DNA of 43,830 nt from a virus. Its lineage: Duplodnaviria > Heunggongvirae > Uroviricota > Caudoviricetes. The notes below the pieces were generated by a model. It was not told the origin of the DNA, did not search any database, and saw only the letters and a program-made list of their open reading frames with translations. The position numbers and the translations under genes are program-made. Below, one piece after another: positions 9,047 through 32,072 of the stretch; the stretch's first letter is position 1, and the number at the start of each line of letters is the position of its first letter. Location: IMG/VR virus record IMGVR_UViG_2684622769_000012; one strand, given 5' to 3'.

Positions 9047-9816
9047 CTACACACACTGCTCCTGAAAATACTGGTCATCCAGTGCAAAGATCACTGCTTC
9101 AAATTCATCGCGCTCAATCAATACCGGATGAGTGGCTAAATATTCATTTATCTCTGTCAGAGATAAAGGCAAAGGCACCCCAGCCATTCCAGCATAACGT
9201 CGGGCACGGGATATTACCGAATAGGCGTACAACAACTCCTTAAGCACCGGGTCTATTTCTGGTTCCGGTATCGGTGGCAACCTGAGTTTTTCTCGCTTCC
9301 ATCTTGCCTTTTCCCCCCTTTCTCCCCCGAACTCCGATAACCACCGCTGGGCAGCTATGGCTTTTTTATCGTATCCTGCTTCTGCTGCTCTTTACCCTGG
9401 GCGATGCTGGCTGCTTCTGCAAGGATCTGCCAGTACAACTCTGGATTCTGCTTAAGCAGCGCGATCCCTCGTTCTGCCGTATATTCCAGTGCAACCTCAA
9501 CACCATTAACCAGTTCACCAACCCCTTTCCAGTCTTTCAGCAGATAACGAGCGGCATTATCAATGAGTAAATCATCAACAGAATCCACCTCGGAAACCTT
9601 TGAAATATCAAACTCCTTCGTTCCGACGTGCAAACTGGCATCCATTTTCTCAATGTGGCGACGGATTAATGCATTACGGGAGCGATACTGATCGTTATCG
9701 CTGCTTGCCACCAACAGTTTTAACCCGTCTACAGGTTTTAAGTCCTTCATTGGCGTAAACCAGCGTTCTCCACCAATGATAATTTTCTGATTAAGAATAA
9801 ACATCCATAACCTCAT
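9047..9816 (-). CDS. Tail assembly chaperone GT-like fusion, produced by -1 programmed frameshift near 9361..9367
   Basis: The -1 frame after A AAA AAG is open and continues (KKAIAAQRWLSEFGGERGEKARWKREKLRLPPIPEPEIDPVLKELLYA...) to the stop at 9047..9049; frame arithmetic fits a -1 shift. Confidence 0.6.
9355..9816 (-). CDS. Tail assembly chaperone G-like (zero-frame product)
   Basis: 153-aa ORF directly downstream of the major tail gene and upstream of the tape measure gene; ends ...QDTIKKP with a slippery heptamer at its 3' end. Confidence 0.7.
   Translation of the reverse strand: MRLWMFILNQKIIIGGERWFTPMKDLKPVDGLKLLVASSDNDQYRSRNALIRRHIEKMDASLHVGTKEFDISKVSEVDSVDDLLIDNAARYLLKDWKGVGELVNGVEVALEYTAERGIALLKQNPELYWQILAEAASIAQGKEQQKQDTIKKP
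9361..9367 (-). promoter_or_regulatory. Slippery heptamer A AAA AAG (programmed -1 ribosomal frameshift site of G/GT)
   Basis: Minus-strand ATA AAA AAG CCA TAG; heptamer begins at the third base of a zero-frame codon, 2 codons before the G stop. Confidence 0.6.
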
Positions 9817-17236: not shown

Positions 17237-18547
17237 TTAAATCCGAAGTGATGTGACTCTTCCGGTCGGTTTGACAATAGGGAATTGCTTAACGATGAAA
17301 TAACCTCCGGCATCATTCGGGTGATCATTGCCAGATTTTTTATCAGGCTCCCCCTTCTCATCCCAGACCTGTTGCTCCAGAGATTCGGCATATAACGGGC
17401 AACGCTTCACATTAACTTTATAGCGACGCTCACCATTGGCATTGCAGAACATTGCATTCATTGAGTTAACGCGATCTTTTACTGGCGGGTTCGAGCTGTT
17501 CACCACAACGTTAAAACCAGCCTGCTTAAGCTGGGCTATATCCGTCGTACTTGCGTTACTTGATTTTCTGGAATCCCCGGAAGCATCTGGATAAATATAA
17601 ATTTCCCTCACTTTCCGGTAATCATTCCCATCATACAGCCAGAAGCGTTCTTTAATGATGCGGATCATATCCGGCGTATCGTAGGCATTGATGATTTCAG
17701 TTACCGCACATGGAAGCCCCAAACGCAGCACATGGACGATTCCCGCCATCTTTCCAACGTTAAAATCCATCCCAATATAAATCGGCTCCCCTGGCTGCTC
17801 CACTTCTTCGCAATTATTCAGTTTCCGGTCAAACTGATGGTAAACAGTACCACTTGTCAGGTTAGTAAACTGTCCTCGAAGATAGGCTTTAATCAGCTCT
17901 GGAGGGTATGATTCAAGAAGCGAAGGAATGTAATCTGCTGGCAGGTTCTTTTCATTATCGAAAGTAGATGCCTGCACCAGACCATACAGTGAGGCCAGCT
18001 CTGTTTTTTCACGCACGGCTTTAACAAACTGCTCGTAGACAAATTTGAATCCTTCCGGCGTGGTTGTAACGTCAATACCGTTGCGAAGTCCATCAATCTT
18101 ATAACGCATACGTGCAATTATCTTGCGCCACGCCGTTCTGGCTTTTTCCTTCGGCAAAATGTCCAGTTCATCCACCAACGCATTACCAATTTTGAAACCG
18201 ACGATCGTTTGTGGCTTCTCCATCGATCTGCAGATAGTGGTTCCCCGATACTGGCGTCCGTAATAAAAGTGAACCTCTTTATTTCCCTCATTAATTTTTA
18301 CGTTCAATCCCCAGTCAGCAGCAACTTCTTCCACTGTAGGGTAAAAAATATCGCGAATTTGGGGATACGTTGGCGCAAAATATCCCTGATTTATACCTGG
18401 ATGCTCCCAAATCCCCTTGCATATGCCGCCACACCCAACCCATGTTTTGCCCGAGCCAAAACCAGCAATATAGGCTTTAAATTTATGGGGCATTGAAAGA
18501 AATCGCGCCTGAGGCACATTAAGCGTCGGAGAGATCATCTTCATCAC
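17237..18547 (-). CDS. Terminase large subunit
   Basis: 436-aa ORF with Walker A-like AGFGSGKT near the N-terminus and acidic nuclease-type C-terminal half; overlaps the small terminase. Confidence 0.9.
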   Translation of the reverse strand: MMKMISPTLNVPQARFLSMPHKFKAYIAGFGSGKTWVGCGGICKGIWEHPGINQGYFAPTYPQIRDIFYPTVEEVAADWGLNVKINEGNKEVHFYYGRQYRGTTICRSMEKPQTIVGFKIGNALVDELDILPKEKARTAWRKIIARMRYKIDGLRNGIDVTTTPEGFKFVYEQFVKAVREKTELASLYGLVQASTFDNEKNLPADYIPSLLESYPPELIKAYLRGQFTNLTSGTVYHQFDRKLNNCEEVEQPGEPIYIGMDFNVGKMAGIVHVLRLGLPCAVTEIINAYDTPDMIRIIKERFWLYDGNDYRKVREIYIYPDASGDSRKSSNASTTDIAQLKQAGFNVVVNSSNPPVKDRVNSMNAMFCNANGERRYKVNVKRCPLYAESLEQQVWDEKGEPDKKSGNDHPNDAGGYFIVKQFPIVKPTGRVTSLRI

Positions 18548-19613
18548 TCCTTACTCTGGCATCAACCACATTAATATTGATCGCCACAGGCTGGGGATGT
18601 TCATTATCTTCCACCGTTTCGATCTCTTTGCGCAGCTTCTGGTTTTCCATTCTGCGCCGTTCAATTTCCAGTTCCCGTAGCCGCTTATCTGCACATAAAG
18701 CCCCGCCAGCAGAAAACAAACGCAACAATTCACGCCGGGCGGCAGCCTTATCCTCCAGCAGGATCTCAACGCCGAATTTTCCGAATTTTGCCCCTGCATA
18801 TAATTGCCGCGCATCCCCATCAAGCAGAGTGGTATCAGCCATATAAAGCTGTCCCGTTCCCTCACCGCAGCACTTCGGGCAGTCCGGATTGGGTATGGCG
18901 TTATCAACAAAGCCGAGGCCTCCATATTCCGGTTCGGGTTTGCCATCTCTGGAAGCCTGCGCCGCTGCCTTGTCGAATTCTGCTATATCGCGCCACTGGT
19001 AGAGATGATTCTCGCCCCAGCAATAACGGCAGTTAACACGGCGAAATTGTGCAAGCTGATTGGGGTCGGCCAGGACAATAGCCATCAACTGACTCACTAG
19101 TAAATCCAGGTCTGCGGTATAGCGTTTCTGGTACTGATTGCGGAAGTAGCTGATAGCGCGAAAAACCCTGGCATTTCTAAGCATACGACTGGCGTTGCTG
19201 TTAGCTGTCGCACCTTGCCCCTCATAACCGGCTAGTCGGTACGCCTCTGTCGGCTTTTTACCCTGAGCAACAAGCATCGCAAACTTAGCCTGCTGGTCAG
19301 AAATGCCGAATTCATCGGGACAGAACGAAAATTCCTCCGCGTCGCCCTCATTCAGGCCCGCATCGAATACTGGCTTTTTTTCCTGAGATTTTTCGTTCCG
19401 CTTTTGTGCAGTCTGCGCAGATTTTTTCTGCGCACTTTTTTGCGCAGTTTTGCACATTTCTGTCTGCGCATTTTTCGGAGTTTTTTTGATGTAACGACGG
19501 GCTGTTGCGTAATTCAGTCCCCTTGCTTCACACCATGCCACCGGAGATATACCGGAGCGGGTGTATTCAGCAATATACTCCTGCTGCAACGCCCCCCAGT
19601 CCGGTCTGCTCAT
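18519..19613 (-). CDS. Terminase small subunit (DNA-binding packaging protein)
   Basis: 364-aa ORF directly upstream of TerL; N-terminal HTH-like segment (GLNYATARRYIKK), basic linker, Cys-rich region. Confidence 0.65.
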   Translation of the reverse strand: MSRPDWGALQQEYIAEYTRSGISPVAWCEARGLNYATARRYIKKTPKNAQTEMCKTAQKSAQKKSAQTAQKRNEKSQEKKPVFDAGLNEGDAEEFSFCPDEFGISDQQAKFAMLVAQGKKPTEAYRLAGYEGQGATANSNASRMLRNARVFRAISYFRNQYQKRYTADLDLLVSQLMAIVLADPNQLAQFRRVNCRYCWGENHLYQWRDIAEFDKAAAQASRDGKPEPEYGGLGFVDNAIPNPDCPKCCGEGTGQLYMADTTLLDGDARQLYAGAKFGKFGVEILLEDKAAARRELLRLFSAGGALCADKRLRELEIERRRMENQKLRKEIETVEDNEHPQPVAININVVDARVRSDEDDLSDA

Positions 19614-19616
19614 CAG

Positions 19617-19868
19617 TTAGTCCTGATTTTTATCCACCCTGAGTAGTTCGCGCAGAGCAAAGGCATCCCCTTTTCTGGCAAGCTTAAACAATGCCGCTCG
19701 TAACTCGGCTTCACCTTTCGCTCTGCCCTTACGGATGGCCGCATAAAAATCTGTCATTGCTTCCCGATTTTCTTTCAGTCGGTTCAGATCAACATCCAGA
19801 ACGTCAGCGATTTGTTGTGCAGTCATCCGGCACGCTGCCAGAGACTCGACTTTCGAATACGGAATCAT
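19617..19868 (-). CDS. Small hypothetical protein (about 69 to 83 aa), possible DNA-binding packaging accessory
   Basis: ORF MIPYSKVESLAACRMTAQQIADVLDVDLNRLKENREAMTDFYAAIRKGRAKGEAELRAALFKLARKGDAFALRELLRVDKNQD; overlaps the 3' end of the upstream gene; start uncertain (internal Met at 19826). Confidence 0.35.
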   Translation of the reverse strand: MIPYSKVESLAACRMTAQQIADVLDVDLNRLKENREAMTDFYAAIRKGRAKGEAELRAALFKLARKGDAFALRELLRVDKNQD

Positions 19869-20754
19869 TTGTCACCCCCATTGATATGCAGGGTGTCTTC
19901 TTCCTGTATTTTTCGTGAAGGATTTTTACTGCAGCGTTGTTCCAGGTGACCTGATGGTGAATGCGTTTATGACTGGCACCCATAAGTGAGATTTTTACGC
20001 ACGACGGCGCATACATGACGGAGTAAAAACTTTTAACGTAGGTTCCGGAATCCAGATACAGCTCGGTCATTCCGCCGCTGTTTTTCTGCGTCTGTTTCTG
20101 CCCTAACTGGACAGCACCGATCGTCATAAACAATTCACCACAGCGACCGAGATTCGTGTACGTATTCACATCCTCGTTAATGCGCCCCATGAATGAGAAC
20201 GGTCGATCAACCGAACAGATAAAGCTGTTCATTGCCTTGCGTTTCACCCACGAAGCATGGCCGCCATTGTCACCAAGAAAATCCCCGCCCTGCGACATAG
20301 CGATGGAAAGAGCAGGTATTGATTCGTAGTACGCAAGCATTTCAGAAAGGATCTCATCCAGTTTCCTTATCGGGAAATAGGCCTGGTCATAGTTGCGATC
20401 CACCCGAAACTGGAACTCGTGATAATCATCATCGAGCTGAATGAAGTATTTACACCCGACCAGTTTTGCCTGGTCGAAACAGGCATTACGGGCGTAAAAA
20501 ATTGAGCGGCGGTCACTAAAATTATCGGCTTCGTCAAAACGACTAGCAATATCGGCTTTGGAAAATACCAGCACCTGTTCACCAAATTCAGCCATGTACT
20601 GATGCCGTGTCTTATCTTCATCATCAACAACGATAAAAATTTTCCCGGTATAGCCAGCACGACGCAACGTCCGGTAAGTCAGAACTTTGTCCGGTCGCCC
20701 GTGAGTCAGAATAAAGGCGCAAAAATCATCACGCATATTCCTCCTCCCCGCCAT
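19804..20754 (-). CDS. Hypothetical protein with GT-A-fold glycosyltransferase-like motif pattern (position of K-12 pseudogene ydaY)
   Basis: 316-aa ORF; N-terminal FILTHGRP, then IFIVVDDED, then FIQLDDDYHEF (hydrophobic strand plus DD / DxD pattern typical of GT-A enzymes); overlaps the ParB-like gene by 26 nt. Assignment by motif only. Confidence 0.4.
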   Translation of the reverse strand: MAGRRNMRDDFCAFILTHGRPDKVLTYRTLRRAGYTGKIFIVVDDEDKTRHQYMAEFGEQVLVFSKADIASRFDEADNFSDRRSIFYARNACFDQAKLVGCKYFIQLDDDYHEFQFRVDRNYDQAYFPIRKLDEILSEMLAYYESIPALSIAMSQGGDFLGDNGGHASWVKRKAMNSFICSVDRPFSFMGRINEDVNTYTNLGRCGELFMTIGAVQLGQKQTQKNSGGMTELYLDSGTYVKSFYSVMYAPSCVKISLMGASHKRIHHQVTWNNAAVKILHEKYRKKTPCISMGVTNDSVFESRVSGSVPDDCTTNR

Positions 20755-21517
20755 GCATGATCTCCACCATGCGCTGCGTCATTCGGACAAATCCATTTTC
20801 AATAGCCTGCTGATAATCAATGATCACCAGCGCCGACTCCTCGAAAAGGCACTGAATTTCAGCGGGGGCATGAGCGTAATAGTCCGCAATTCTGCTGAAA
20901 TTAAACACCGTGTGACGTTCTGCTGCACACAGGAGGAATTTCTCAATATCAGGATCAAGGGACGCCGAACGTATCCGGCTGATCAGCTCCTGAGTTTTCG
21001 TATCGTCGTACAGTTCACTGATATCCGGTTTACCGCCTGACGGCTCATAAACAGGCGTATCAATTTTCGTCGTATACGGCTCCTCCTCATTTCCTGTACC
21101 GGGCAAAACATCCGTCAACAGTTCATCAATTTCTGCCGGGATGAAGCCTGTCAGGGAGACATCAAAATCAGCATTGATTAGGTCCGACAGCTCCATCCGC
21201 AACAGATCTTCATCCCAGCCAGCATTCATCGGCAGGCGATTATCTGCCAGGCGGTACGCCTTTTTCTGCTCATCCGTCAGGCCAGACAGAACAATGACCG
21301 GAACAGAATCCATTTTGAGCATTTCAGCCGCCATAACACGACCGTGACCCGCAATAATTTCGCCCTTTTCGTCAATCAGCACCGGATTAGTCCAGCCGAA
21401 TTGCTTAATACTTTCTACCAGTTGTGCCACCTGCTCAGTACTGTGCGTCCTGGCGTTGTGCGCATACGGTGACAATTCTTGTAATGGGCGATAGACTATC
21501 TTTAATTTCTCGCTCAT
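20729..21517 (-). CDS. ynaK: ParB-like nuclease-domain protein
   Basis: 262-aa ORF with N-terminal ParB/Srx-type region (LIDEKGEIIAGHGRVMAA); corresponds in position to Rac ynaK downstream of trkG. Confidence 0.65.
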   Translation of the reverse strand: MSEKLKIVYRPLQELSPYAHNARTHSTEQVAQLVESIKQFGWTNPVLIDEKGEIIAGHGRVMAAEMLKMDSVPVIVLSGLTDEQKKAYRLADNRLPMNAGWDEDLLRMELSDLINADFDVSLTGFIPAEIDELLTDVLPGTGNEEEPYTTKIDTPVYEPSGGKPDISELYDDTKTQELISRIRSASLDPDIEKFLLCAAERHTVFNFSRIADYYAHAPAEIQCLFEESALVIIDYQQAIENGFVRMTQRMVEIMHGGEEEYA

Positions 21518-21544: not shown

Positions 21545-21568
21545 CCCCAGCAGCCAGTGCTACTGGGG
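21545..21568 (-). terminator. Candidate terminator hairpin immediately downstream of trkG
   Basis: Plus strand ccccag-cagccagtgcta-ctgggg (6-bp GC stem); on the minus strand followed by TGCGTTTTATT. Confidence 0.35.
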
Positions 21569-21654: not shown

Positions 21655-23112
21655 TTAGGAGCGCCAAAAAAAACCTGAAAACAATATAATAACAGGATAA
21701 ATTTCAAGGCGACCAAGAATCATAGCTATGCACATTAAATATTTTGCAATGTCATTAAGCACTCCGAATGACGATGCAGTAGCCCCAAAACCTAATCCCA
21801 TATTATTAATACATGCAGCCACTGTTGCAAATGATGTAAGAAAATCATATCCCATACCATTTAACACCAGTATAAAAAACACCGTGAAGAGAGTATAAAG
21901 AAAAAAGAAACTCCATACAGACCTCATTACACGATCTGTAACTATCTTCCCTCCTACATTTACACTCAACAACGCTCTGGGATGAGAAAGCTGATTTATC
22001 TCGTGTTTGCTTTGTTTGAAAAGTATAAGAAATCGAAGTGACTTAATTCCACCACAGGTTGAACCTATACATCCCCCAAAGAAACTTGACAACAGCAAAA
22101 ACACTATCGTGTGCGTGGGCCAGTTTGCATAATCCTGCGTAGCTAAACCATTATCAGTGAGCATGGAGCTGGCAAGAAAAAACGAATGAATAAAACTTCC
22201 ATGCAAGTCATACATACCTATATGCCAGACCTGGAAAGAGGTAACAATGATCACCCCTAAGGCTATTAACAGAAAGAAACGAAGTTCAATATCTCTGATT
22301 AAAGGTTTTATCGTTTTTCTGCTAATAACAATATACCAAAGAGTGAAGTTGAAAGCCGATAGCAGGGAAAAAGAACCAGCCACCAGCTCAACCAAATAGT
22401 TATTAAAATATCCGATACTCTCGCTATGAGTTGAGAAACCACCAAGCGAAACTGTGGAAATCCCGTGACAAATAGCATCAAACAAAGGCATTCCTGCAAG
22501 TCTATAACAGACAATACAAGCAATACCTAATAAAGAATAAGTTATCCACAGTGTCCGTGACGTATCGGCCAGGCGGGGAGTGAGTTTGTCATCCTTAAAT
22601 GGCCCCGGCATTTCTGACTGATAAAGCTTTGCACCACCAATACCCAATAATGGCAATACTGCAACCGCCAGAACAATAACTCCTAAACCACCTATAAAAT
22701 TTAACTGTGACCGATAGTACAAATATGCCCGAGGTAATGAACTAACATCATCAATTACAGTTGCTCCTGTTGTTGTTATTCCAGAAACCCCTTCAAACAG
22801 AGCATCAATGAACGTTAAATTAAGTTCTGAGTCAATCCATAAAGGGAATGCACTAATAACAGAAAACAAAATCCAAAACATTACAATTATAATAAACCCA
22901 TCACGGGTACGTAATTGAATGCCAGATTTCTTAGTTGTATACCACGCTCCGCCACCAATGCAAAAAAATATAACGAAAGTTATAAAGAAAACGAACAGGC
23001 TTTTTTCTTTATAAAACAATGCTACAACCATTGGTGGCAACATTGAAAGACTATAGAGCCAAACCAGGAACCCACACATATGAGTAACAACTCTTACATG
23101 AGATGTATTCAT
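21655..23112 (-). CDS. trkG: Trk-system potassium uptake protein TrkG (TrkH family membrane protein), prophage moron
   Basis: ORF translation matches Rac TrkG; start chosen at MNTSHVRV (ATG 23110..23112), giving 485 aa; multi-pass hydrophobic protein with repeated GxG selectivity-like loops; visibly AT-rich. Confidence 0.9.
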   Translation of the reverse strand: MNTSHVRVVTHMCGFLVWLYSLSMLPPMVVALFYKEKSLFVFFITFVIFFCIGGGAWYTTKKSGIQLRTRDGFIIIVMFWILFSVISAFPLWIDSELNLTFIDALFEGVSGITTTGATVIDDVSSLPRAYLYYRSQLNFIGGLGVIVLAVAVLPLLGIGGAKLYQSEMPGPFKDDKLTPRLADTSRTLWITYSLLGIACIVCYRLAGMPLFDAICHGISTVSLGGFSTHSESIGYFNNYLVELVAGSFSLLSAFNFTLWYIVISRKTIKPLIRDIELRFFLLIALGVIIVTSFQVWHIGMYDLHGSFIHSFFLASSMLTDNGLATQDYANWPTHTIVFLLLSSFFGGCIGSTCGGIKSLRFLILFKQSKHEINQLSHPRALLSVNVGGKIVTDRVMRSVWSFFFLYTLFTVFFILVLNGMGYDFLTSFATVAACINNMGLGFGATASSFGVLNDIAKYLMCIAMILGRLEIYPVIILFSGFFWRS

Positions 23113-23249
23113 ATCTAAATATTCTTTCAATTATAACCACCTTGCTGCAATATTATGATTATACTGTATAAAATTTAACTCCTCTTAGATCTTACTTCAC
23201 TGTTCCTTATGAAACAATCATCAAAATGAATCATATTGTAGTTAAGATT

Positions 23250-24674: not shown

Positions 24675-25070
24675 CTAACCTCGCATGTCAAAGCCAGATT
24701 TCTGAAAATCTCTGTAGACTTCCGGATTGTTGAAGGCCGGAAATTTGGCTTTATGAGCTGCGGACTTTATCGCTTCGCAATAGGCTTTATCACCGTTACT
24801 GGTAGATATTTTTAACGCCGTGCCATCCTGAGAGAATTCCATATGCAACCTGCATTTTTTCCCTTTCCAGTTATGCGGCTCATCAAGTTTGGCATTAATT
24901 GCAGCTCTGATTCCCCGCGCTTGCGCCCCCCATTCATCCTGATCATCCCAGCGTCCTGAACTGCAACTACCTGTAGCAGTAGTTTTGTGGCAATCTGAAG
25001 GGTGTAAAGGTGTGCATCCCGCAACAAAACCGACCCAAAAAGTCAACATAACGATTTTCTTTAATCCCAC
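24675..25070 (-). CDS. Lipoprotein with divergent TolA domain III-like C-terminus (paralogue of the upstream gene)
   Basis: 131-aa ORF; signal peptide with lipobox FVAGC; C-terminal pattern GKKCRLHMEF...DG..L.I....GDKAYCEAIKSAAHKAKFP....PEVYRDFQ parallels TolA-III. Confidence 0.6.
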   Translation of the reverse strand: MGLKKIVMLTFWVGFVAGCTPLHPSDCHKTTATGSCSSGRWDDQDEWGAQARGIRAAINAKLDEPHNWKGKKCRLHMEFSQDGTALKISTSNGDKAYCEAIKSAAHKAKFPAFNNPEVYRDFQKSGFDMRG

Positions 25071-25220: not shown

Positions 25221-25649
25221 TCAGGGTTTAAAATCCAGCACCCCATTTTGAAATACTTTATATACTTCCGGCGAAGGGGGGGCAGGTATATCAGCATTCT
25301 TTATCGCATTCATCGCTTCACGACATAAATCGAGGTCTCCACTTTCTCTTTTAACCTCCAGTAGAAGGCCATTCGGGGCCATATGCATTCTCAGTGTACA
25401 CTCTTTTCCTGAATACTTACTCGCATCCCCGAACTGTTTTTCGATGGCGCTCTTGATTTGATGGGCATACAGACGGATATCCTCACTAACATCAGAAGTA
25501 CGTTCAGATGAACTCACATACTGTGTCTCTATTGCTTTATCGGAGTAATATGATGTACGGTCATGATAATTTGTCGATACAGCATCAGTGCACCCGATAA
25601 TAATCCCACTAATAATCAACGTAAGAATTGATGCGCTACGAAAACCCAT
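25221..25649 (-). CDS. Lipoprotein with TolA domain III-like C-terminal domain
   Basis: 142-aa ORF; lipobox IIIGC; C-terminal about 85 aa (HQIKSAIEKQFGDASKYSGKECTLRMHMAPNGLLLEVKRESGDLDLCREAMNAIKNADIPAPPSPEVYKVFQNGVLDFKP) closely parallels the E. coli TolA C-terminus as recalled. Confidence 0.7.
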   Translation of the reverse strand: MGFRSASILTLIISGIIIGCTDAVSTNYHDRTSYYSDKAIETQYVSSSERTSDVSEDIRLYAHQIKSAIEKQFGDASKYSGKECTLRMHMAPNGLLLEVKRESGDLDLCREAMNAIKNADIPAPPSPEVYKVFQNGVLDFKP

Positions 25650-26693: not shown

Positions 26694-27236
26694 TCAAGCC
26701 ATTTTCTCAGCAAATGATTCACGCATGGGAATATATAGGGCATACTCAGCAACAGCTAACCAATTAGCAATCCGTTTTTCGCATGTGCTAAAACACCACT
26801 CTGGGTGTGCATCATTTAGCAATTCAGCCATTTTGCGCTTAGTCATCCCCCGCCCTTCATAGCGTTGCCGGAGAATGCAAATCAATCCTGGATGCTCTGC
26901 CAGCACCTCACTTATGACTCGATCAATACATAACGCCTCTGCATCAGTACAATGCGCCAGCCAGCTCTTTTGCTTGCCGTTGATCATCTCTCGCAAAAAC
27001 GCTTCCAGCTCAGCTTTCTCTATTCCCGCTTTTTTCATTCTGCGCAGGGCTTCATTAATGGCTGTTTTCGTCAGTTTTTTGGATGCCAACAACTGATTGA
27101 ACATATTCCCTGACCTGCCACCGCCAATATACGACCAGCGCCCCCACATACGTAGTTTTCCCTGAATCCAGACACTTTCCAGCGTGGTGAGGCGAAGGTG
27201 TTCTCCGCTTTTTCCTGTATTCGTTGGGTAAATCAT
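26694..27236 (-). CDS. Putative late-gene antiterminator (Q-like) protein
   Basis: 180-aa basic ORF located in the canonical Q position (after nin-like genes, before terminator, holin and endolysin); assignment mainly positional. Confidence 0.45.
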   Translation of the reverse strand: MIYPTNTGKSGEHLRLTTLESVWIQGKLRMWGRWSYIGGGRSGNMFNQLLASKKLTKTAINEALRRMKKAGIEKAELEAFLREMINGKQKSWLAHCTDAEALCIDRVISEVLAEHPGLICILRQRYEGRGMTKRKMAELLNDAHPEWCFSTCEKRIANWLAVAEYALYIPMRESFAEKMA

Positions 27237-29894: not shown

Positions 29895-30896
29895 TTAGTA
29901 ATCTGCGTGTTTCGCACTTTTCAGAAATGCTTTCATATTTTCATTAGGTCGCTCAATTTCGAAGTTACTTCCATATAACTCTTGTAATTTTGGCCATAAC
30001 TTACTTAATAACCCTCTCCTGCGATAAAATGGATGTATCCAAACGGTAGATAGGTACGGAGAATTTGCATTTGAATTGTTTATTGTGACCAGCCCAACTA
30101 AACATTGTCGATAACCACTATTATCCATTGATTGTATTTCTTCGACGAATGGATACGCGATTACATCAGTCCAACCATGATCGGTTGTATCCCATTGCAT
30201 TCCGTCATGACATTCCTTCGACTGATAGCGGCGTAAAGCTACACACGCGAGCTTTTGCCAATCTGGAGAATTAATTGTGATCTCTTCATCGTATGACGCG
30301 CCTATTGGAGCGGGTATTGGTCTGATTAATCCAGCATGGCATTCATCATAGAACTTCATGTTTCCCTCAGAAACGTTGTGTACGTTGGGTTGCTCCATGT
30401 GTGCGCCATTCAAAAATAGCTCTGATAGTAGTGTATCTACACTGTAATCTTTATTGATTATTGTCGGCTTAGAGTTTTTCTTATTAAGGCCGCGAGTAAC
30501 GATTTTTTGATCAATGTTAACAACATGGAATAATCCGTCGGGGAGGCTAGCGAACCACGATGGGGCATCGGACCAGAATAGCATGCCTTTTGTACTTCTT
30601 AAGAGTTTAATTAAGTTAATACAAGCTTCTTCACTAGTCTTGCCGTTGATGCGAAGTATGTTAGGACTAAAGTAATATTCATCCATATCAGGGAATGCAG
30701 CTTCGCAAAACTCCTGTACATAATTTAGCACCTGGATTCTACAGAGATCATCATAGCTGGTAATAACTAAGGGGGTATCTTCATTACTATTATGATTATC
30801 AATAATGCAATCTATAGCGAGACTTACTGCTTTGCGTATCACTTCAGTTGAATCTAACGACTCTAAAAATTTTGTCTTTCGTGTGCGAATATCCAT
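29895..30896 (-). CDS. Hypothetical 333-aa protein, second gene of AT-rich accessory cassette (weak GNAT-like C-terminal motif)
   Basis: ATG 30894..30896 lies 15 nt after the stop of the upstream gene; AT-rich codon usage; C-terminal VWIHPFYRRRGLLSKLWPKL vaguely resembles the acetyl-CoA binding motif of GNATs; no other recognisable motif. Confidence 0.5.
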   Translation of the reverse strand: MDIRTRKTKFLESLDSTEVIRKAVSLAIDCIIDNHNSNEDTPLVITSYDDLCRIQVLNYVQEFCEAAFPDMDEYYFSPNILRINGKTSEEACINLIKLLRSTKGMLFWSDAPSWFASLPDGLFHVVNIDQKIVTRGLNKKNSKPTIINKDYSVDTLLSELFLNGAHMEQPNVHNVSEGNMKFYDECHAGLIRPIPAPIGASYDEEITINSPDWQKLACVALRRYQSKECHDGMQWDTTDHGWTDVIAYPFVEEIQSMDNSGYRQCLVGLVTINNSNANSPYLSTVWIHPFYRRRGLLSKLWPKLQELYGSNFEIERPNENMKAFLKSAKHADY

Positions 30897-30911: not shown

Positions 30912-31934
30912 TTAAAATTCATGAATGAACGGTTTGTCATCTGGTTGCAAAATGGTGGTTTTATTCGTTGCTACATTTAAACTGTTGTAGAGCATAATTG
31001 CCAGGTTCGATGCATTTTCAATCAGCGTTTCAAGATCCTGGTCTGTAATCACTACGAGGTTCCCTTCTTTATCCTTTCCACCACGATGCACTAAGTGATT
31101 TCGATTGAGGGTTGCCAATTCAATAGCTTCTATCGGACAGTCTTTTTGTACTTTTATATCGAATGTAGCTTCATAGCGGTCGATTACCTTTTTAGTGCTA
31201 TGCCAGCTTGCACTGATCAAGTGTTCCTTGATTGACCTGATTAGCTCTCCCCTAATTTTCTCGATGGGTTCACCCTTGAAAGGCAACGCAGCAATATCTT
31301 TGCTTACTTTAAATTCAGTCTTACCTTTTTCTATACAATTGGCTATGTAGACATCATCTTTCTCTATAGAATTAATGAATAGCTCAACATAAAGCGTTTC
31401 CAAAGCTGTAATAACATTCGTGTAGAGCAAACTAAGCAAGTGGTTTTTTTGCTGTTGTTCAGTTTTATCTTTTGCAAGTTTTTTTATTTTATCGATATTA
31501 TCAATGAATTTTAAATACGGATTACCGGAAGACGTTACAGCGTCGTAGATATCATCATCGTACCAATCATCTATATTATTTGAGTTTCCAGACCAGTCAA
31601 AACATTGTGTTTGTAATTCATCTACTAATTCCTCAATATACTCAGATTTAACATATTGACCGAAGATGGATTGTAGTTCTTCGCTCGCATCATACGGCCC
31701 GCCATATATGTAAGCATAGCCACCTTCTCTACTTTCATACGGACAAGCATTTGCCGGATCTTCAAAGTTTTCAAAGAACCAGTTTTTCATTACTTCGAGT
31801 TGATCTTTTTTGCTTATGTATTTTAAAGATTTTAGTGGAACTTTCTTTCCATTAACCTCGAAAACAATTTTCACGATGTAACGCTCCCTTGTATCAATTG
31901 CGCAACTATTATACCACAGCGAAATACAGGGCAT
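30912..31934 (-). CDS. Hypothetical about 340-aa protein with HEPN-like R-x4-H motif, first gene of AT-rich accessory cassette
   Basis: ORF 30912..32003; preferred start ATG 31932..31934 (MPCISLWYN...) with AGGAGG 6 nt upstream; alternative in-frame GTG at 31874 with AGGGAG upstream. Motif LNRNHLVHRGG near the C-terminus. Confidence 0.5.
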   Translation of the reverse strand: MPCISLWYNSCAIDTRERYIVKIVFEVNGKKVPLKSLKYISKKDQLEVMKNWFFENFEDPANACPYESREGGYAYIYGGPYDASEELQSIFGQYVKSEYIEELVDELQTQCFDWSGNSNNIDDWYDDDIYDAVTSSGNPYLKFIDNIDKIKKLAKDKTEQQQKNHLLSLLYTNVITALETLYVELFINSIEKDDVYIANCIEKGKTEFKVSKDIAALPFKGEPIEKIRGELIRSIKEHLISASWHSTKKVIDRYEATFDIKVQKDCPIEAIELATLNRNHLVHRGGKDKEGNLVVITDQDLETLIENASNLAIMLYNSLNVATNKTTILQPDDKPFIHEF

Positions 31935-32072
31935 AACCTGCCTCCTTAAACTAACATACCATGAGCCAGCAATGTCCGCTATTGGCACAAAGCGGACAAC
32001 CACGCTAGCTCTCCCCTGTGCCAGAAAAATGTCAATTTACATATGAACTAATGCTCTTTGATCTAGTAACGT

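What the first reader, a model, noticed from the sequence alone, without database searches (positions are those of the whole stretch)
19804..21517. ParB-like nuclease-domain protein translationally coupled to a GT-A-like protein, immediately upstream of the terminase genes
A 262-aa ParB/Srx-fold protein overlaps by 26 nt a 316-aa protein. The second shows a GT-A glycosyltransferase-like motif series: FILTHGRP, IFIVVDDED, FIQLDDDYHEF (DxD). In K-12 Rac these positions hold only the fragment ynaK and the pseudogene ydaY, so the intact pair may never have been examined functionally. A ParB-fold NTP-binding or nuclease protein paired with a sugar or nucleotidyl transferase next to the packaging genes suggests DNA modification (for example base glycosylation as an anti-restriction measure) or a packaging accessory function.
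Basis: inference. Interest (0 to 1): 0.55.

Follow-up and report, generated by a model that had tools for sequence, protein, structure and literature searches.

The report
Phage ParB-adaptor plus DNA-type glycosyltransferase pair
Two overlapping late genes of a Rac-like E. coli prophage encode a sugar-transferring enzyme from a family known to glycosylate DNA, plus a dedicated ParB-like partner; the pair is conserved in phages of bacteria and archaea, yet it lacks the base-hydroxylating enzyme that known relatives need, so what it glycosylates is an open and testable question.

Summary
On the minus strand, a 262-aa ParB-fold gene (20729-21517) overlaps a glycosyltransferase gene (19804-20754; the likely start is at 20736, giving 310 aa and an 8-nt ATGCGTGA overlap). 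The pair lies directly upstream of the terminase genes.

The glycosyltransferase is a clear member of Pfam TAGT (PF20691, E 4e-34). It has a GT-A fold and the R...DDD...ED motif. Characterised members of this family glycosylate hydroxymethyl-pyrimidine DNA (JGT, the T2/T6 enzyme).

New here:
- This TAGT subfamily is almost always translationally coupled to one partner family: 70 of 78 diverse species genomes, and 74 of 76 in the reverse test.
- The constant part of the partner is an undescribed acidic ~115-aa C-terminal domain. ParB_N is usually, but not always, fused to it.
- The same ParB_N subtype is fused to phage DNA methyltransferases that occupy the same pre-terminase slot.
- No TET/JBP dioxygenase or hydroxymethylase accompanies the pair, either in this prophage or in the complete genome of phage c5.

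Best reading (about 0.5): a two-subunit, late-expressed DNA glycosylation module with an unknown acceptor. I classify it as a new variant of a known kind, interest about 0.6. About 16% of complete E. coli genomes carry most of the locus.

The parts
20729..21517 (-). Gene for the 262-aa partner protein: an N-terminal ParB/CTPase-fold domain followed by the conserved C-terminal TAGT-partner domain.
   Evidence: ORF. Pfam ParB_N, PHROG 620 E 2e-90. AF2 model plus Foldseek match to ParB-CDP, Noc and KorB. dN/dS 0.12-0.14.
21101..21517 (-). ParB_N / CTPase-fold domain (residues 1-139). NTP-contact residues N21, R23, G57-H58-G59-R60 and D92-N93. The catalytic Glu of canonical GERRxR is replaced by His.
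   Evidence: HMMER alignment to Noc and ParB structures. Invariant columns. Same subtype as the ParB_N of phage DNA methyltransferases: PHROG 498 E 6e-51, PADLOC MTase_II E 1.5e-38, tblastn.
21026..21076 (-). Conserved linear motif Y148-T-x-K-I-x-x-P-x-Y-E-P-x-x-x-x-P164, in a segment predicted to be disordered, between the two domains.
   Evidence: Invariant Y148, P155, Y157 and P164 in alignments A4 and A6. pLDDT below 50 for residues 137-159.
20732..21100 (-). C-terminal domain (residues 140-262): acidic, helical, with no Pfam or PDB relative. This is the constant partner of the TAGT subfamily and occurs as a stand-alone 131-148-aa protein in other phages.
   Evidence: Domain-resolved hmmsearch. 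Alignment A6. Reverse census 74/76. No family or structure found. 1195 clusters at 50% identity. pI 4.4.
19804..20736 (-). Glycosyltransferase gene: 310 aa from the ATG at 20736; the longest ORF starts at 20754 (316 aa). TAGT family, GT-A fold.
   Evidence: Pfam PF20691 E 4e-34, PHROG 842 E 8e-104. AF2 plus Foldseek to GT-A enzymes and phage TAGT models. dN/dS 0.06-0.07.
20425..20433 (-). DDD (D102-D104) metal / nucleotide-sugar binding motif of the GT-A fold.
   Evidence: Read directly from the sequence. Invariant in alignments A1, A2 and A5. Matches the R...DDD...ED motif described for phage JGT-like GT-A enzymes.
20170..20175 (-). E188-D189 of the INEDVN motif, the candidate catalytic base region. 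R14 (20695-20697) is the conserved Arg of the motif series.
   Evidence: Sequence. D189 invariant and E188 at least 90% conserved.
20729..20749 (-). Translational-coupling junction: Shine-Dalgarno GGGGAGGAGG (20740-20749), GT start ATG (20734-20736), and ParB stop TGA (20729-20731) within ATGCGTGA.
   Evidence: Sequence. Stop/start overlaps of 4-35 nt are the rule across 70 diverse loci.
21545..21568 (-). Intrinsic terminator of the upstream trkG moron, 28 nt before the ParB start. No promoter-like site lies between it and parB, so the pair is read with the late packaging operon.
   Evidence: Terminator scan: 10-bp stem with 7 GC pairs plus a T tract. Gene order from the lysis genes and trkG through to the terminase.
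17237..19868 (-). Downstream context: small terS-like ORF (19617-19868), TerS (18519-19613) and TerL (17237-18547).
   Evidence: Pfam and PHROG hits.

Best explanation
The two genes form one self-contained, late-expressed DNA-glycosylation module.

Proposed roles:
- The 310-aa TAGT-family GT-A enzyme is the catalytic subunit. It is usually basic and probably makes the contact with DNA.
- The 262-aa acidic protein is its obligatory adaptor. Its C-terminal domain, together with the preceding YTxK..PxYEP peptide, binds the transferase.
- Its ParB_N nucleotide-binding domain is the subtype otherwise fused to phage DNA methyltransferases. By analogy with the ParB-dependent phage thymine dioxygenases and with KorB-KorA, it would load or hold the enzyme on double-stranded phage DNA.

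The pair is made at the start of the late operon, immediately before the terminase. It would therefore act on replicated phage DNA just before or during packaging. The likely benefit is protection of injected DNA from host nucleases and other defences.

Shown:
- family membership, fold and catalytic motifs;
- strict two-way genomic coupling;
- late-operon position;
- purifying selection;
- absence of any recognisable hydroxymethyl-pyrimidine source.

Inferred:
- physical complex formation;
- DNA as the substrate;
- the acceptor atom. Because the module travels alone between phages of many phyla and of archaea, the acceptor must be universal, meaning an ordinary DNA constituent, or encoded within the module;
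- the anti-defence benefit.
For: - TAGT membership: Pfam PF20691 at 118.8 bits against a cutoff of 27.5, PHROG 842 E 8e-104.
- GT-A fold: Foldseek hits to SpsA, TarS, SunS and glycogenin, and TM 0.71-0.78 to phage TAGT models.
- Invariant R14, D102-104, D189 and H260-261, matching the R...DDD...ED motif of JGT-like phage DNA glycosyltransferases.
- Characterised TAGT members act on DNA (T2/T6 enzyme; JGT).
- Coupling: 70 of 78 species-representative loci from more than 10 phyla have the partner gene directly upstream, usually overlapping; 6 more have it about 800 nt upstream. The same holds in phages of Lactobacillus, Nocardia, Porphyromonas and Haloarcula and in metagenomic contigs. Reverse test: 74 of 76.
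- The constant element is the C-terminal domain; about 12 loci have it without ParB_N.
- The ParB_N subtype equals that of ParB_N-DNA methyltransferase fusions. In prophage EJ-1 that fusion sits in the identical slot before terS/terL.
- A phage ParB-like protein is experimentally required by a DNA-modifying enzyme on dsDNA (PMC13229309).
- Accessory genes in variant loci are a second TAGT paralogue, SAM methyltransferases and one sugar epimerase/dehydratase. This fits building a tailored glycan.
- The pair sits at the head of the late operon, with terminase large subunits of at least four families downstream.
- dN/dS 0.06-0.14. Charge complementarity: TAGT pI about 8.8, partner about 4.6.
Against: - All characterised TAGT enzymes need a hydroxyl acceptor made by a dioxygenase or a hydroxymethylase. 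None is detectable in this prophage, in 148 dereplicated upstream neighbours, or in the complete 31.8-kb genome of phage c5. Glycosylation of an unmodified DNA base has no precedent.
- GREB1, another TAGT relative, is reported to glycosylate a protein.
- The partner is strongly acidic and has no recognisable DNA-binding domain.
- The AF2 models are poor for the C-terminal half of the GT and for the partner's C-terminal domain, so no interface or DNA groove could be examined.
- The NEB survey regarded GT contigs lacking 5mYOX/ThyS as less likely to be DNA hypermodification pathways.
- No experimental data exist for any member of this module.
Confidence: 0.5

Rival explanations
1. Protein glycosylation. 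The TAGT enzyme glycosylates a protein, most plausibly its own partner on the invariant Tyr/Thr of the disordered YTxK..PxYEP motif (glycogenin-like priming, with second GTs extending the glycan), or a universal host protein.
For: The acceptor must be universal or module-encoded, because the pair moves alone between very different phages. The motif has two invariant tyrosines in a segment predicted to be disordered. GREB1, a TAGT relative, is reported to O-GlcNAcylate a protein. Glycogenin is among the structural matches. Tandem second TAGT paralogues occur.
Against: The ParB_N subtype is shared with DNA methyltransferase fusions in the same slot. Characterised phage and kinetoplastid TAGTs act on DNA. 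A conserved peptide is explained equally well as a docking element. No benefit to a phage is apparent.
Confidence: 0.15
2. Conventional TAGT chemistry. The enzyme glycosylates 5hmU or 5hmC that is supplied by an unrecognised hydroxylase (in the phage or the host), or it acts only when such bases are available.
For: This is the only chemistry demonstrated for the family. The NEB survey reports thousands of contigs retrieved with its 5mYOX profiles that carry no TET/JBP annotation. ParB co-occurs with 5mYOX in known pathways.
Against: No conserved third gene accompanies the pair: 963 clusters came from 1401 neighbouring ORFs, and none is frequent except the terminases. No TET_JBP appears among the family counts. 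The complete c5 genome and this prophage have no candidate. The hosts span bacteria and archaea.
Confidence: 0.1
3. Small-molecule or nucleotide glycosylation. The pair modifies a nucleotide, a signalling molecule or a cofactor to blunt a host defence, with ParB_N acting as the NTP-binding module.
For: ParB/Srx folds include NTP-dependent small-molecule and protein-modifying enzymes (SerK, Srx) and show versatile NTP use. The substrate would be universal.
Against: ParB_N is dispensable in about 12 loci. The late-operon timing is poor for countering early defences. There is no precedent in the family.
Confidence: 0.08
4. Packaging or partition accessory. The ParB-like protein marks or organises phage DNA for the terminase, and the transferase has a structural or regulatory role without modifying DNA.
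For: The position immediately upstream of terS/terL is constant across at least four terminase families.
Against: The catalytic residues of the GT are invariant and under strong purifying selection. There is no HTH domain, no ParA and no parS, and the protein scores below the TIGR00180 cutoff. Stand-alone C-terminal-domain versions lack ParB_N. The Vibrio jumbo phages carry the pair among replication genes.
Confidence: 0.07
5. Cell-envelope glycan modification, in the manner of the prophage-encoded GT-A enzyme TarP (lysogenic conversion or superinfection exclusion).
For: TarS/TarP-type enzymes are structural neighbours.
Against: The pair lies behind a terminator in the late operon, with no promoter of its own. 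The proteins are cytoplasmic, the enzyme is coupled to a ParB-type protein, and the pair occurs in Gram-negative, Gram-positive and archaeal viruses.
Confidence: 0.03

Closest known systems
TAGT family (Pfam PF20691): kinetoplastid base-J glucosyltransferase JGT, the T2/T6 beta-glucosyl-HMC-alpha-glucosyltransferase, and phage 5mYOX-associated GT-A enzymes
   Same: Strong profile match, GT-A fold, and the same R...DDD...ED active-site motif. Phage-encoded.
   Different: No TET/JBP, thymidylate-synthase-type hydroxymethylase or alpha-GT is present to make the acceptor. Only 22-25% identity to the T4-like enzymes, which have no partner gene. This subfamily has an obligatory partner domain.
ParB-dependent phage thymine dioxygenases (5mYOX176/ParB176; O'Toole et al., PNAS 2026, PMC13229309)
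   Same: A short ParB-like protein (nucleotide-binding domain plus C-terminal domain, with no DNA-binding domain) is encoded next to a post-replicative DNA-modifying enzyme and near the terminase. In that system it is needed for activity on dsDNA.
   Different: The client enzyme here is a glycosyltransferase, not a dioxygenase. Homology of the C-terminal domains could not be tested because the sequences are not held. Here the C-terminal domain also exists alone.
ParB_N-DNA methyltransferase fusions of phages (PHROG 498, PADLOC MTase_II; for example ORF37 of S. pneumoniae prophage EJ-1)
   Same: The ParB_N subtype is the same (E 6e-51 and 1.5e-38; 40-53% identity) and so is the slot at the head of the packaging operon.
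   Different: The enzyme is covalently fused and is a methyltransferase. Here the enzyme is a separate, translationally coupled glycosyltransferase, joined through a dedicated domain.
Canonical partition ParB/Spo0J, Noc and KorB CTPase clamps
   Same: Same N-terminal fold, and the phosphate-contacting residues are conserved.
   Different: No HTH domain, no ParA and no parS. The GERR box reads GHGR. The score is below the TIGR00180 cutoff (38 against 58).
GREB1 (animal TAGT-domain protein; PGAP names the window protein 'GREB1-related')
   Same: Shared TAGT domain.
   Different: GREB1 is a large eukaryotic protein reported to glycosylate a nuclear receptor. The PGAP name reflects domain homology only.

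Membership tests
TAGT (PF20691) glycosyltransferases | Match to the family profile above the curated threshold | tested here: met
   118.8 bits against a cutoff of 27.5, E 4.1e-34, residues 14-228. PHROG 842 E 8e-104.
TAGT (PF20691) glycosyltransferases | GT-A fold with the R...DDD...ED active-site motif | tested here: met
   Foldseek matches to GT-A structures and to phage TAGT models. R14, D102-104 and D189 invariant, E188 at least 90% conserved. Motif as described.
TAGT (PF20691) glycosyltransferases | Genomic association with a source of hydroxymethyl-pyrimidine (TET/JBP 5mYOX, or a ThyA-like hydroxymethylase) | tested here: not met
   None in the prophage. None among the family counts for 148 dereplicated neighbours. 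None in the complete phage c5 genome.
TAGT (PF20691) glycosyltransferases | Transfer of a sugar from a nucleotide-sugar to DNA | not testable with these tools
   Requires biochemistry or LC-MS.
T2/T6 beta-glucosyl-HMC-alpha-glucosyltransferase (the PHROG name) | Acts on alpha-glucosyl-5hmC, in a phage that has dCMP hydroxymethylase and alpha-GT | tested here: not met
   No such genes in the window. Only 22-25% identity to T4-like homologues.
Partition ParB/Spo0J (TIGR00180) | ParB N-terminal CTPase fold | tested here: met
   Pfam ParB_N 29.3 against 26.3. Foldseek to ParB-CDP, Noc, MxParB and KorB at E about 1e-6.
Partition ParB/Spo0J (TIGR00180) | GERRxR CTP-binding and hydrolysis box | tested here: inconclusive
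   Aligned as G57-H58-G59-R60. The phosphate-contacting Arg, N21/R23 and N93 are kept, but the catalytic Glu is replaced by His.
Partition ParB/Spo0J (TIGR00180) | Central HTH DNA-binding domain, C-terminal dimerisation domain, and a ParA partner with parS | tested here: not met
   TIGR00180 scores 38.1 against a cutoff of 58.45 and matches only residues 11-94. The C-terminal half has no known family. No ParA in the prophage.
5mYOX-associated ParB activators (O'Toole 2026) | NBD plus CTD architecture without a DNA-binding domain | tested here: inconclusive
   The architecture agrees. Homology of the CTDs is untestable because the sequences are not held.
5mYOX-associated ParB activators (O'Toole 2026) | A cognate 5mYOX dioxygenase encoded alongside | tested here: not met
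ParB_N-DNA methyltransferase fusions (PHROG 498 / PADLOC MTase_II) | This ParB_N subtype | tested here: met
   E 6e-51 and E 1.5e-38 over residues 3-144. 433 phage records.
ParB_N-DNA methyltransferase fusions (PHROG 498 / PADLOC MTase_II) | A fused methyltransferase domain | tested here: not met
   The profile match stops at position 151 of 436 and at 171 of 633. The C-terminal half is the unrelated partner domain.

The most novel reading that the evidence does not exclude
The ParB-adaptor/TAGT pair is a self-sufficient system that attaches a sugar directly to an ordinary constituent of DNA, with no prior hydroxymethylation. That would be a previously unknown DNA modification, made by very common temperate phages of E. 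coli and by phages of many bacterial phyla and of haloarchaea, with a new adaptor domain that recruits the transferase.
Probability: 0.2. Interest if true: 0.9.

Novelty: new variant of a known kind. Interest (0 to 1): 0.6.

Why it matters
Phage DNA glycosylation is currently understood as a second step that follows hydroxymethylation: pre-replicative in the T-even phages, or by TET/JBP-type dioxygenases. This report describes a tight two-gene module from the same enzyme family that lacks that first step.

Three features make it worth following up:
- It is widespread. The partner domain forms about 1,200 clusters at 50% identity.
- It is common in E. coli. A match occurs in 1,610 of 5,426 complete genomes, and 866 carry most of the locus.
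- It sits in an experimentally easy host.

Working out its acceptor would have one of two outcomes. It could reveal a new nucleic-acid or protein modification, with consequences for restriction, Type IV systems, sequencing artefacts and phage engineering. Or it could expose an unrecognised route to hydroxymethyl bases.

It would also do three further things:
- extend the emerging idea that ParB-fold proteins are general loaders for DNA-modifying enzymes;
- define a new adaptor domain that current databases do not model;
- explain a class of 'orphan' phage GT-A genes that earlier surveys set aside.

In addition, PGAP currently mis-annotates the intact partner gene as a ynaK pseudogene fragment, which hides the module in genome records.

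Tried and rejected
- **Literature access.** Iyer et al. 2013 (the paper that defined TAGT) and the supplementary sequences of O'Toole et al. 2026 are not held. Their statements on ParB-TAGT linkage and the ParB176 sequence could not be checked. The first two literature searches were swamped by canonical ParB papers.
- **Collection scans.** The first viral-contig scan returned mostly near-identical E. coli prophages and was useless as a census. A 7-sequence alignment led by a Lactobacillus phage protein worked.
- **C-terminal domain.** Searching it against PDB sequences and Pfam gave nothing credible. There were only weak recurrent hits to PF23887 (L5 gp47-like, E 0.01-0.1), which I do not accept as homology.
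- **Structure models.** AF2 was confident only for the ParB_N domain and the N-terminal half of the GT. I drew no conclusions about an interface or a DNA groove. A complex model was not possible with the tools, and AFDB50 was unavailable.
- **PADLOC and NCBIfam** gave nothing for the GT.
- **Catalytic C-terminal domain.** I considered that the domain might itself be a hydroxylase. I rejected this: about 115 helical residues with one invariant His and no paired metal-binding motifs.
- **Aeh1/phiAS5 motif.** I considered that the 'PRYEPK' stretch in the N-terminal extension of the Aeh1 and phiAS5 TAGTs equals the partner motif. It is not conserved in phage 65 and has no statistical support (E 0.25).
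- **Not tested.** I did not check whether the Vibrio jumbo phages that carry the stand-alone domain plus TAGT also encode a hydroxymethylase.
Full report
**1. The observation**

The minus strand carries a 262-aa ORF (20729..21517) and a 316-aa ORF (19804..20754) that overlap by 26 nt. These are followed by an 83-aa ORF, a 364-aa ORF and a 436-aa ORF. The three quoted motifs are all present.

The second gene most likely starts at the ATG at 20736, giving 310 aa:
- PGAP and almost all homologues start there.
- A GGGGAGGAGG Shine-Dalgarno sequence lies at 20740-20749, 3 nt upstream of that ATG.
- The ParB stop codon then falls inside ATGCGTGA, an 8-nt overlap typical of translational coupling.

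The downstream genes are a terS-like fragment, TerS (Terminase_2) and TerL (Terminase_6N/6C). Upstream lie trkG, then the Rz, lysozyme and holin genes. This is a Rac-like lambdoid prophage of E. coli. Identical DNA occurs in many complete genomes: 1,610 of 5,426 have a match, and 866 of these cover at least 80% of the 2.2-kb query.

Both genes are under purifying selection. dN/dS is 0.06-0.07 for the GT and 0.12-0.14 for ParB in comparisons where dS is not saturated.

**2. The K-12 statement**

K-12 YnaK (87 aa) is residues 1-86 of this ParB protein (99% identical). K-12 YdaY is 100% identical to residues 38-153 of the window ORF 9355..9816, which lies between the tail tube and tape-measure genes. 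K-12 Rac therefore has a deletion of about 11.4 kb. It removed the rest of parB, the glycosyltransferase, the terminase, and the head and tail genes. YdaY is not a relic of the transferase.

PGAP annotates the intact 262-aa gene in identical sequences as a 'ynaK pseudogene, missing C-terminus'. This is presumably an artefact of the K-12-derived model.

**3. What the two proteins are**

*The 310-aa protein.* It matches Pfam PF20691, TET-Associated Glycosyltransferase (TAGT), at E 4e-34, and PHROG 842 at E 8e-104. PGAP calls it 'GREB1-related'.
- The AF2 model is confident for the N-terminal half only.
- It matches solved GT-A enzymes (SpsA, TarS, SunS, ColGalT1, glycogenin) at E about 1e-4.
- It matches predicted phage TAGT structures at TM 0.71-0.78.
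- R14, D102-D104, D189 and H260-H261 are invariant across relatives at 26-65% identity. This fits the R...DDD...ED motif described for JGT-like phage DNA glycosyltransferases.
- Characterised members of PF20691 act on DNA: the T2/T6 beta-glucosyl-HMC-alpha-glucosyltransferase and the base-J glucosyltransferase.

*The 262-aa protein.* It has a ParB_N/CTPase-fold domain at residues 1-139.
- Evidence for the fold: Pfam E 9e-7; Foldseek to ParB-CDP, Noc, MxParB, PadC and KorB at E about 1e-6.
- The residues that contact the NTP phosphates in canonical ParB are kept (N21/R23, R60, D92-N93). The GERR box reads GHGR, so the catalytic Glu is replaced by His.
- The protein is not a partition ParB. It scores below the TIGR00180 cutoff and has no HTH domain, and the prophage has no ParA.

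**4. The conserved module**

Relatives of the transferase in cultured phages sit in the same arrangement: ParB-like gene, overlapping TAGT gene, then terminase. This holds in Lactobacillus phages phi-jlb1 and c5, Nocardia phage NTR1, a Porphyromonas phage, and the haloarchaeal virus HHTV-2. It also holds in metagenomic contigs with pre-computed Pfam labels.

*Forward census.* I scanned one genome per species (80 loci). The phyla covered were Bacteroidota, Bacillota, Negativicutes, Proteobacteria, Kiritimatiellota, Planctomycetota, Verrucomicrobiota, Ignavibacteriota, Cloacimonadota, Saccharibacteria and an archaeon.

| Arrangement | Loci (of 78 with a TAGT ORF) |
|---|---|
| Partner gene immediately upstream, usually overlapping by 4-35 nt | 70 |
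| Partner gene upstream with another gene inserted between (5 about 800 nt away, 1 at 156 nt) | 6 |
| TAGT at a contig end | 2 |

Four of the inserted genes are a second, divergent TAGT paralogue, and one is a class-I SAM methyltransferase. In one locus such a methyltransferase is fused to the partner.

*The constant element is the C-terminal domain, not ParB_N.* A domain-resolved search showed that the conserved part of the partner is its C-terminal ~115 residues plus a preceding peptide, KY[ST]xKIxxPxYEPxxxxP. In about a dozen loci the upstream gene encodes only this domain, as a 131-148-aa protein. These include Vibrio jumbo phages, where the pair lies among replication genes.

Properties of this domain:
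- No Pfam family and no solved relative.
- Predicted helical, and acidic with pI about 4.6.
- The conserved peptide lies in a segment predicted to be disordered.
- About 1,195 clusters at 50% identity among 1.84 billion representatives.

*Reverse census.* Starting from the domain, 74 of 76 viral contigs have TAGT directly downstream.

*T4-like TAGTs.* These are 22-25% identical to the window protein and have no such partner.

**5. What is not there**

Known TAGT pathways need a hydroxyl acceptor. It is made either by a TET/JBP-type dioxygenase or by a pre-replicative hydroxymethylase. I found none:
- The prophage has none. This rests on PGAP annotation of identical DNA and Pfam scans of its unannotated ORFs.
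- The 1,401 neighbouring ORFs of the diverse loci fall into 963 clusters. No recurrent third partner appears apart from terminases.
- In Pfam scans of 148 dereplicated upstream neighbours, no TET_JBP appears among the 25 families listed of 75 matched. The listed families include four N6/N4 DNA methyltransferases and one sugar epimerase/dehydratase.
- The complete 31.8-kb genome of phage c5 has no candidate.

The NEB survey had already noted that about 65% of phage GT contigs lack 5mYOX/ThyS, and it set them aside.

**6. Evidence that the target is DNA**

- The ParB_N domain is the same subtype as the one fused to phage DNA methyltransferases. Support: PHROG 498 at E 6e-51, PADLOC MTase_II at E 1.5e-38, and 433 phage records, many annotated as DNA methylases at 40-53% identity.
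- In S. pneumoniae prophage EJ-1, that fusion occupies exactly the slot used here: late activator, then the ParB_N-methylase, then terS-like, terL and portal genes (compare phi-jlb1).
- A phage ParB-like protein with the same overall architecture has been shown experimentally to be required by a thymine dioxygenase, specifically on dsDNA.
- The transferase tends to be basic (median pI 8.8) and the partner acidic. This fits a model in which the enzyme supplies the DNA contact and the partner acts as clamp or adaptor.

**7. Expression**

A strong intrinsic terminator (21568..21545) follows the trkG moron, 28 nt before parB. No promoter-like site intervenes. The pair is therefore read with the Q-antiterminated late operon. 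The Q-like gene is at 26694..27236.

Across 69 diverse loci with enough downstream sequence, 61 have a large ORF within 3 kb downstream. Most of these are terminase large subunits of at least four families. The position relative to packaging is thus conserved even though the packaging machinery varies.

**8. Interpretation**

The best-supported reading is a two-subunit, late-acting DNA glycosyltransferase whose acceptor is unknown.

The module moves alone between unrelated phages of bacteria and archaea. Its acceptor must therefore be universal or encoded by the module itself. That leaves two main options:
- an ordinary DNA constituent, which would be new chemistry;
- the partner's own invariant Tyr/Thr motif, which would mean protein glycosylation.

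Less likely alternatives are an unrecognised hydroxylase, a small-molecule target, a pure packaging role, or envelope modification.

**9. Novelty**

The enzyme family and the ParB link to DNA modification are both known. Three things appear to be undescribed in the literature I could search:
- the obligate coupling of this TAGT subfamily to a dedicated partner domain;
- the domain itself;
- the systematic absence of a hydroxymethylating enzyme.

Noticed in passing
window 20729-21517 (L001 21761-22018): In genomes with 100% identical DNA, PGAP annotates the intact 262-aa ParB-like gene as a short 'ynaK pseudogene, missing C-terminus'. This hides the full-length gene in RefSeq records.
   Followed up: partly
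window 9355-9816 (-) and K-12 L006 5378-5981: K-12 YdaY is the C-terminal 116 residues of an ORF lying between the tail tube and tape-measure genes (the tail-assembly-chaperone position). K-12 Rac has a deletion of about 11.4 kb joining codon ~86 of parB to this ORF.
   Followed up: yes
proteins P0192-P0240: Many E. coli assemblies encode chimeric or truncated proteins that keep only the first ~60-70% of this ParB, joined to Lom, terminase or tail-fibre-assembly sequence. This suggests recurrent deletions with an end point inside parB in decaying Rac-like prophages.
   Followed up: no
window 21655-23130 (-) and 21545-21568 (-): trkG (K+ transporter) sits as a moron between the lysis cassette and the packaging operon. 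It has its own strong intrinsic terminator just before parB.
   Followed up: partly
window 24675-25070 (-) and 25221-25649 (-): Two prophage ORFs carry TolA C-terminal domains (Pfam E 1e-14 and 2e-23). They lie just upstream of the lysis genes in transcription order, and may be decoys for Tol-dependent phages or colicins.
   Followed up: no
window 29895-30896 (-) and 30912-32003 (-): Two adjacent ORFs of unknown function have only weak hits (GNAT acetyltransferase E 9e-4; HEPN/RES N-terminal domain E 2e-4) and no PADLOC match. One is frameshifted in strain EC2. This may be a prophage accessory or defence pair.
   Followed up: partly
L105 641-1489, L106 9160-10011, L112 9156-10007, L113 9181-10014; L171 5883-6719; L159 189-1739: Variant modules. 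Some Clostridia prophages carry a second divergent TAGT paralogue between the partner and TAGT. A Verrucomicrobia locus inserts a class-I SAM methyltransferase there. An Ignavibacteria locus fuses such a methyltransferase to the partner's N-terminus.
   Followed up: partly
L250 3689-4888 (Aeromonas phage Aeh1), L252 389-1588: The partner-less T4-like TAGT proteins have an N-terminal extension of about 110 aa containing 'MPRYEPKDIIDAY'. This is reminiscent of the partner motif PxYEPxxxxPxIxELxD, but it is not conserved in phage 65 and is not statistically supported.
   Followed up: partly
L007 17837-20316 (metagenomic phage contig): Four consecutive family-2 glycosyltransferase genes lie just after the capsid gene, in a phage that also has the ParB-TAGT pair. 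This may be virion glycosylation, separate from the module.
   Followed up: no
window 19804-19880: The E. coli TAGT has a C-terminal extension of about 25 aa that is absent from Salmonella, Klebsiella and more distant homologues (287-290 aa). It overlaps the start of the next small ORF by 23-65 nt.
   Followed up: no
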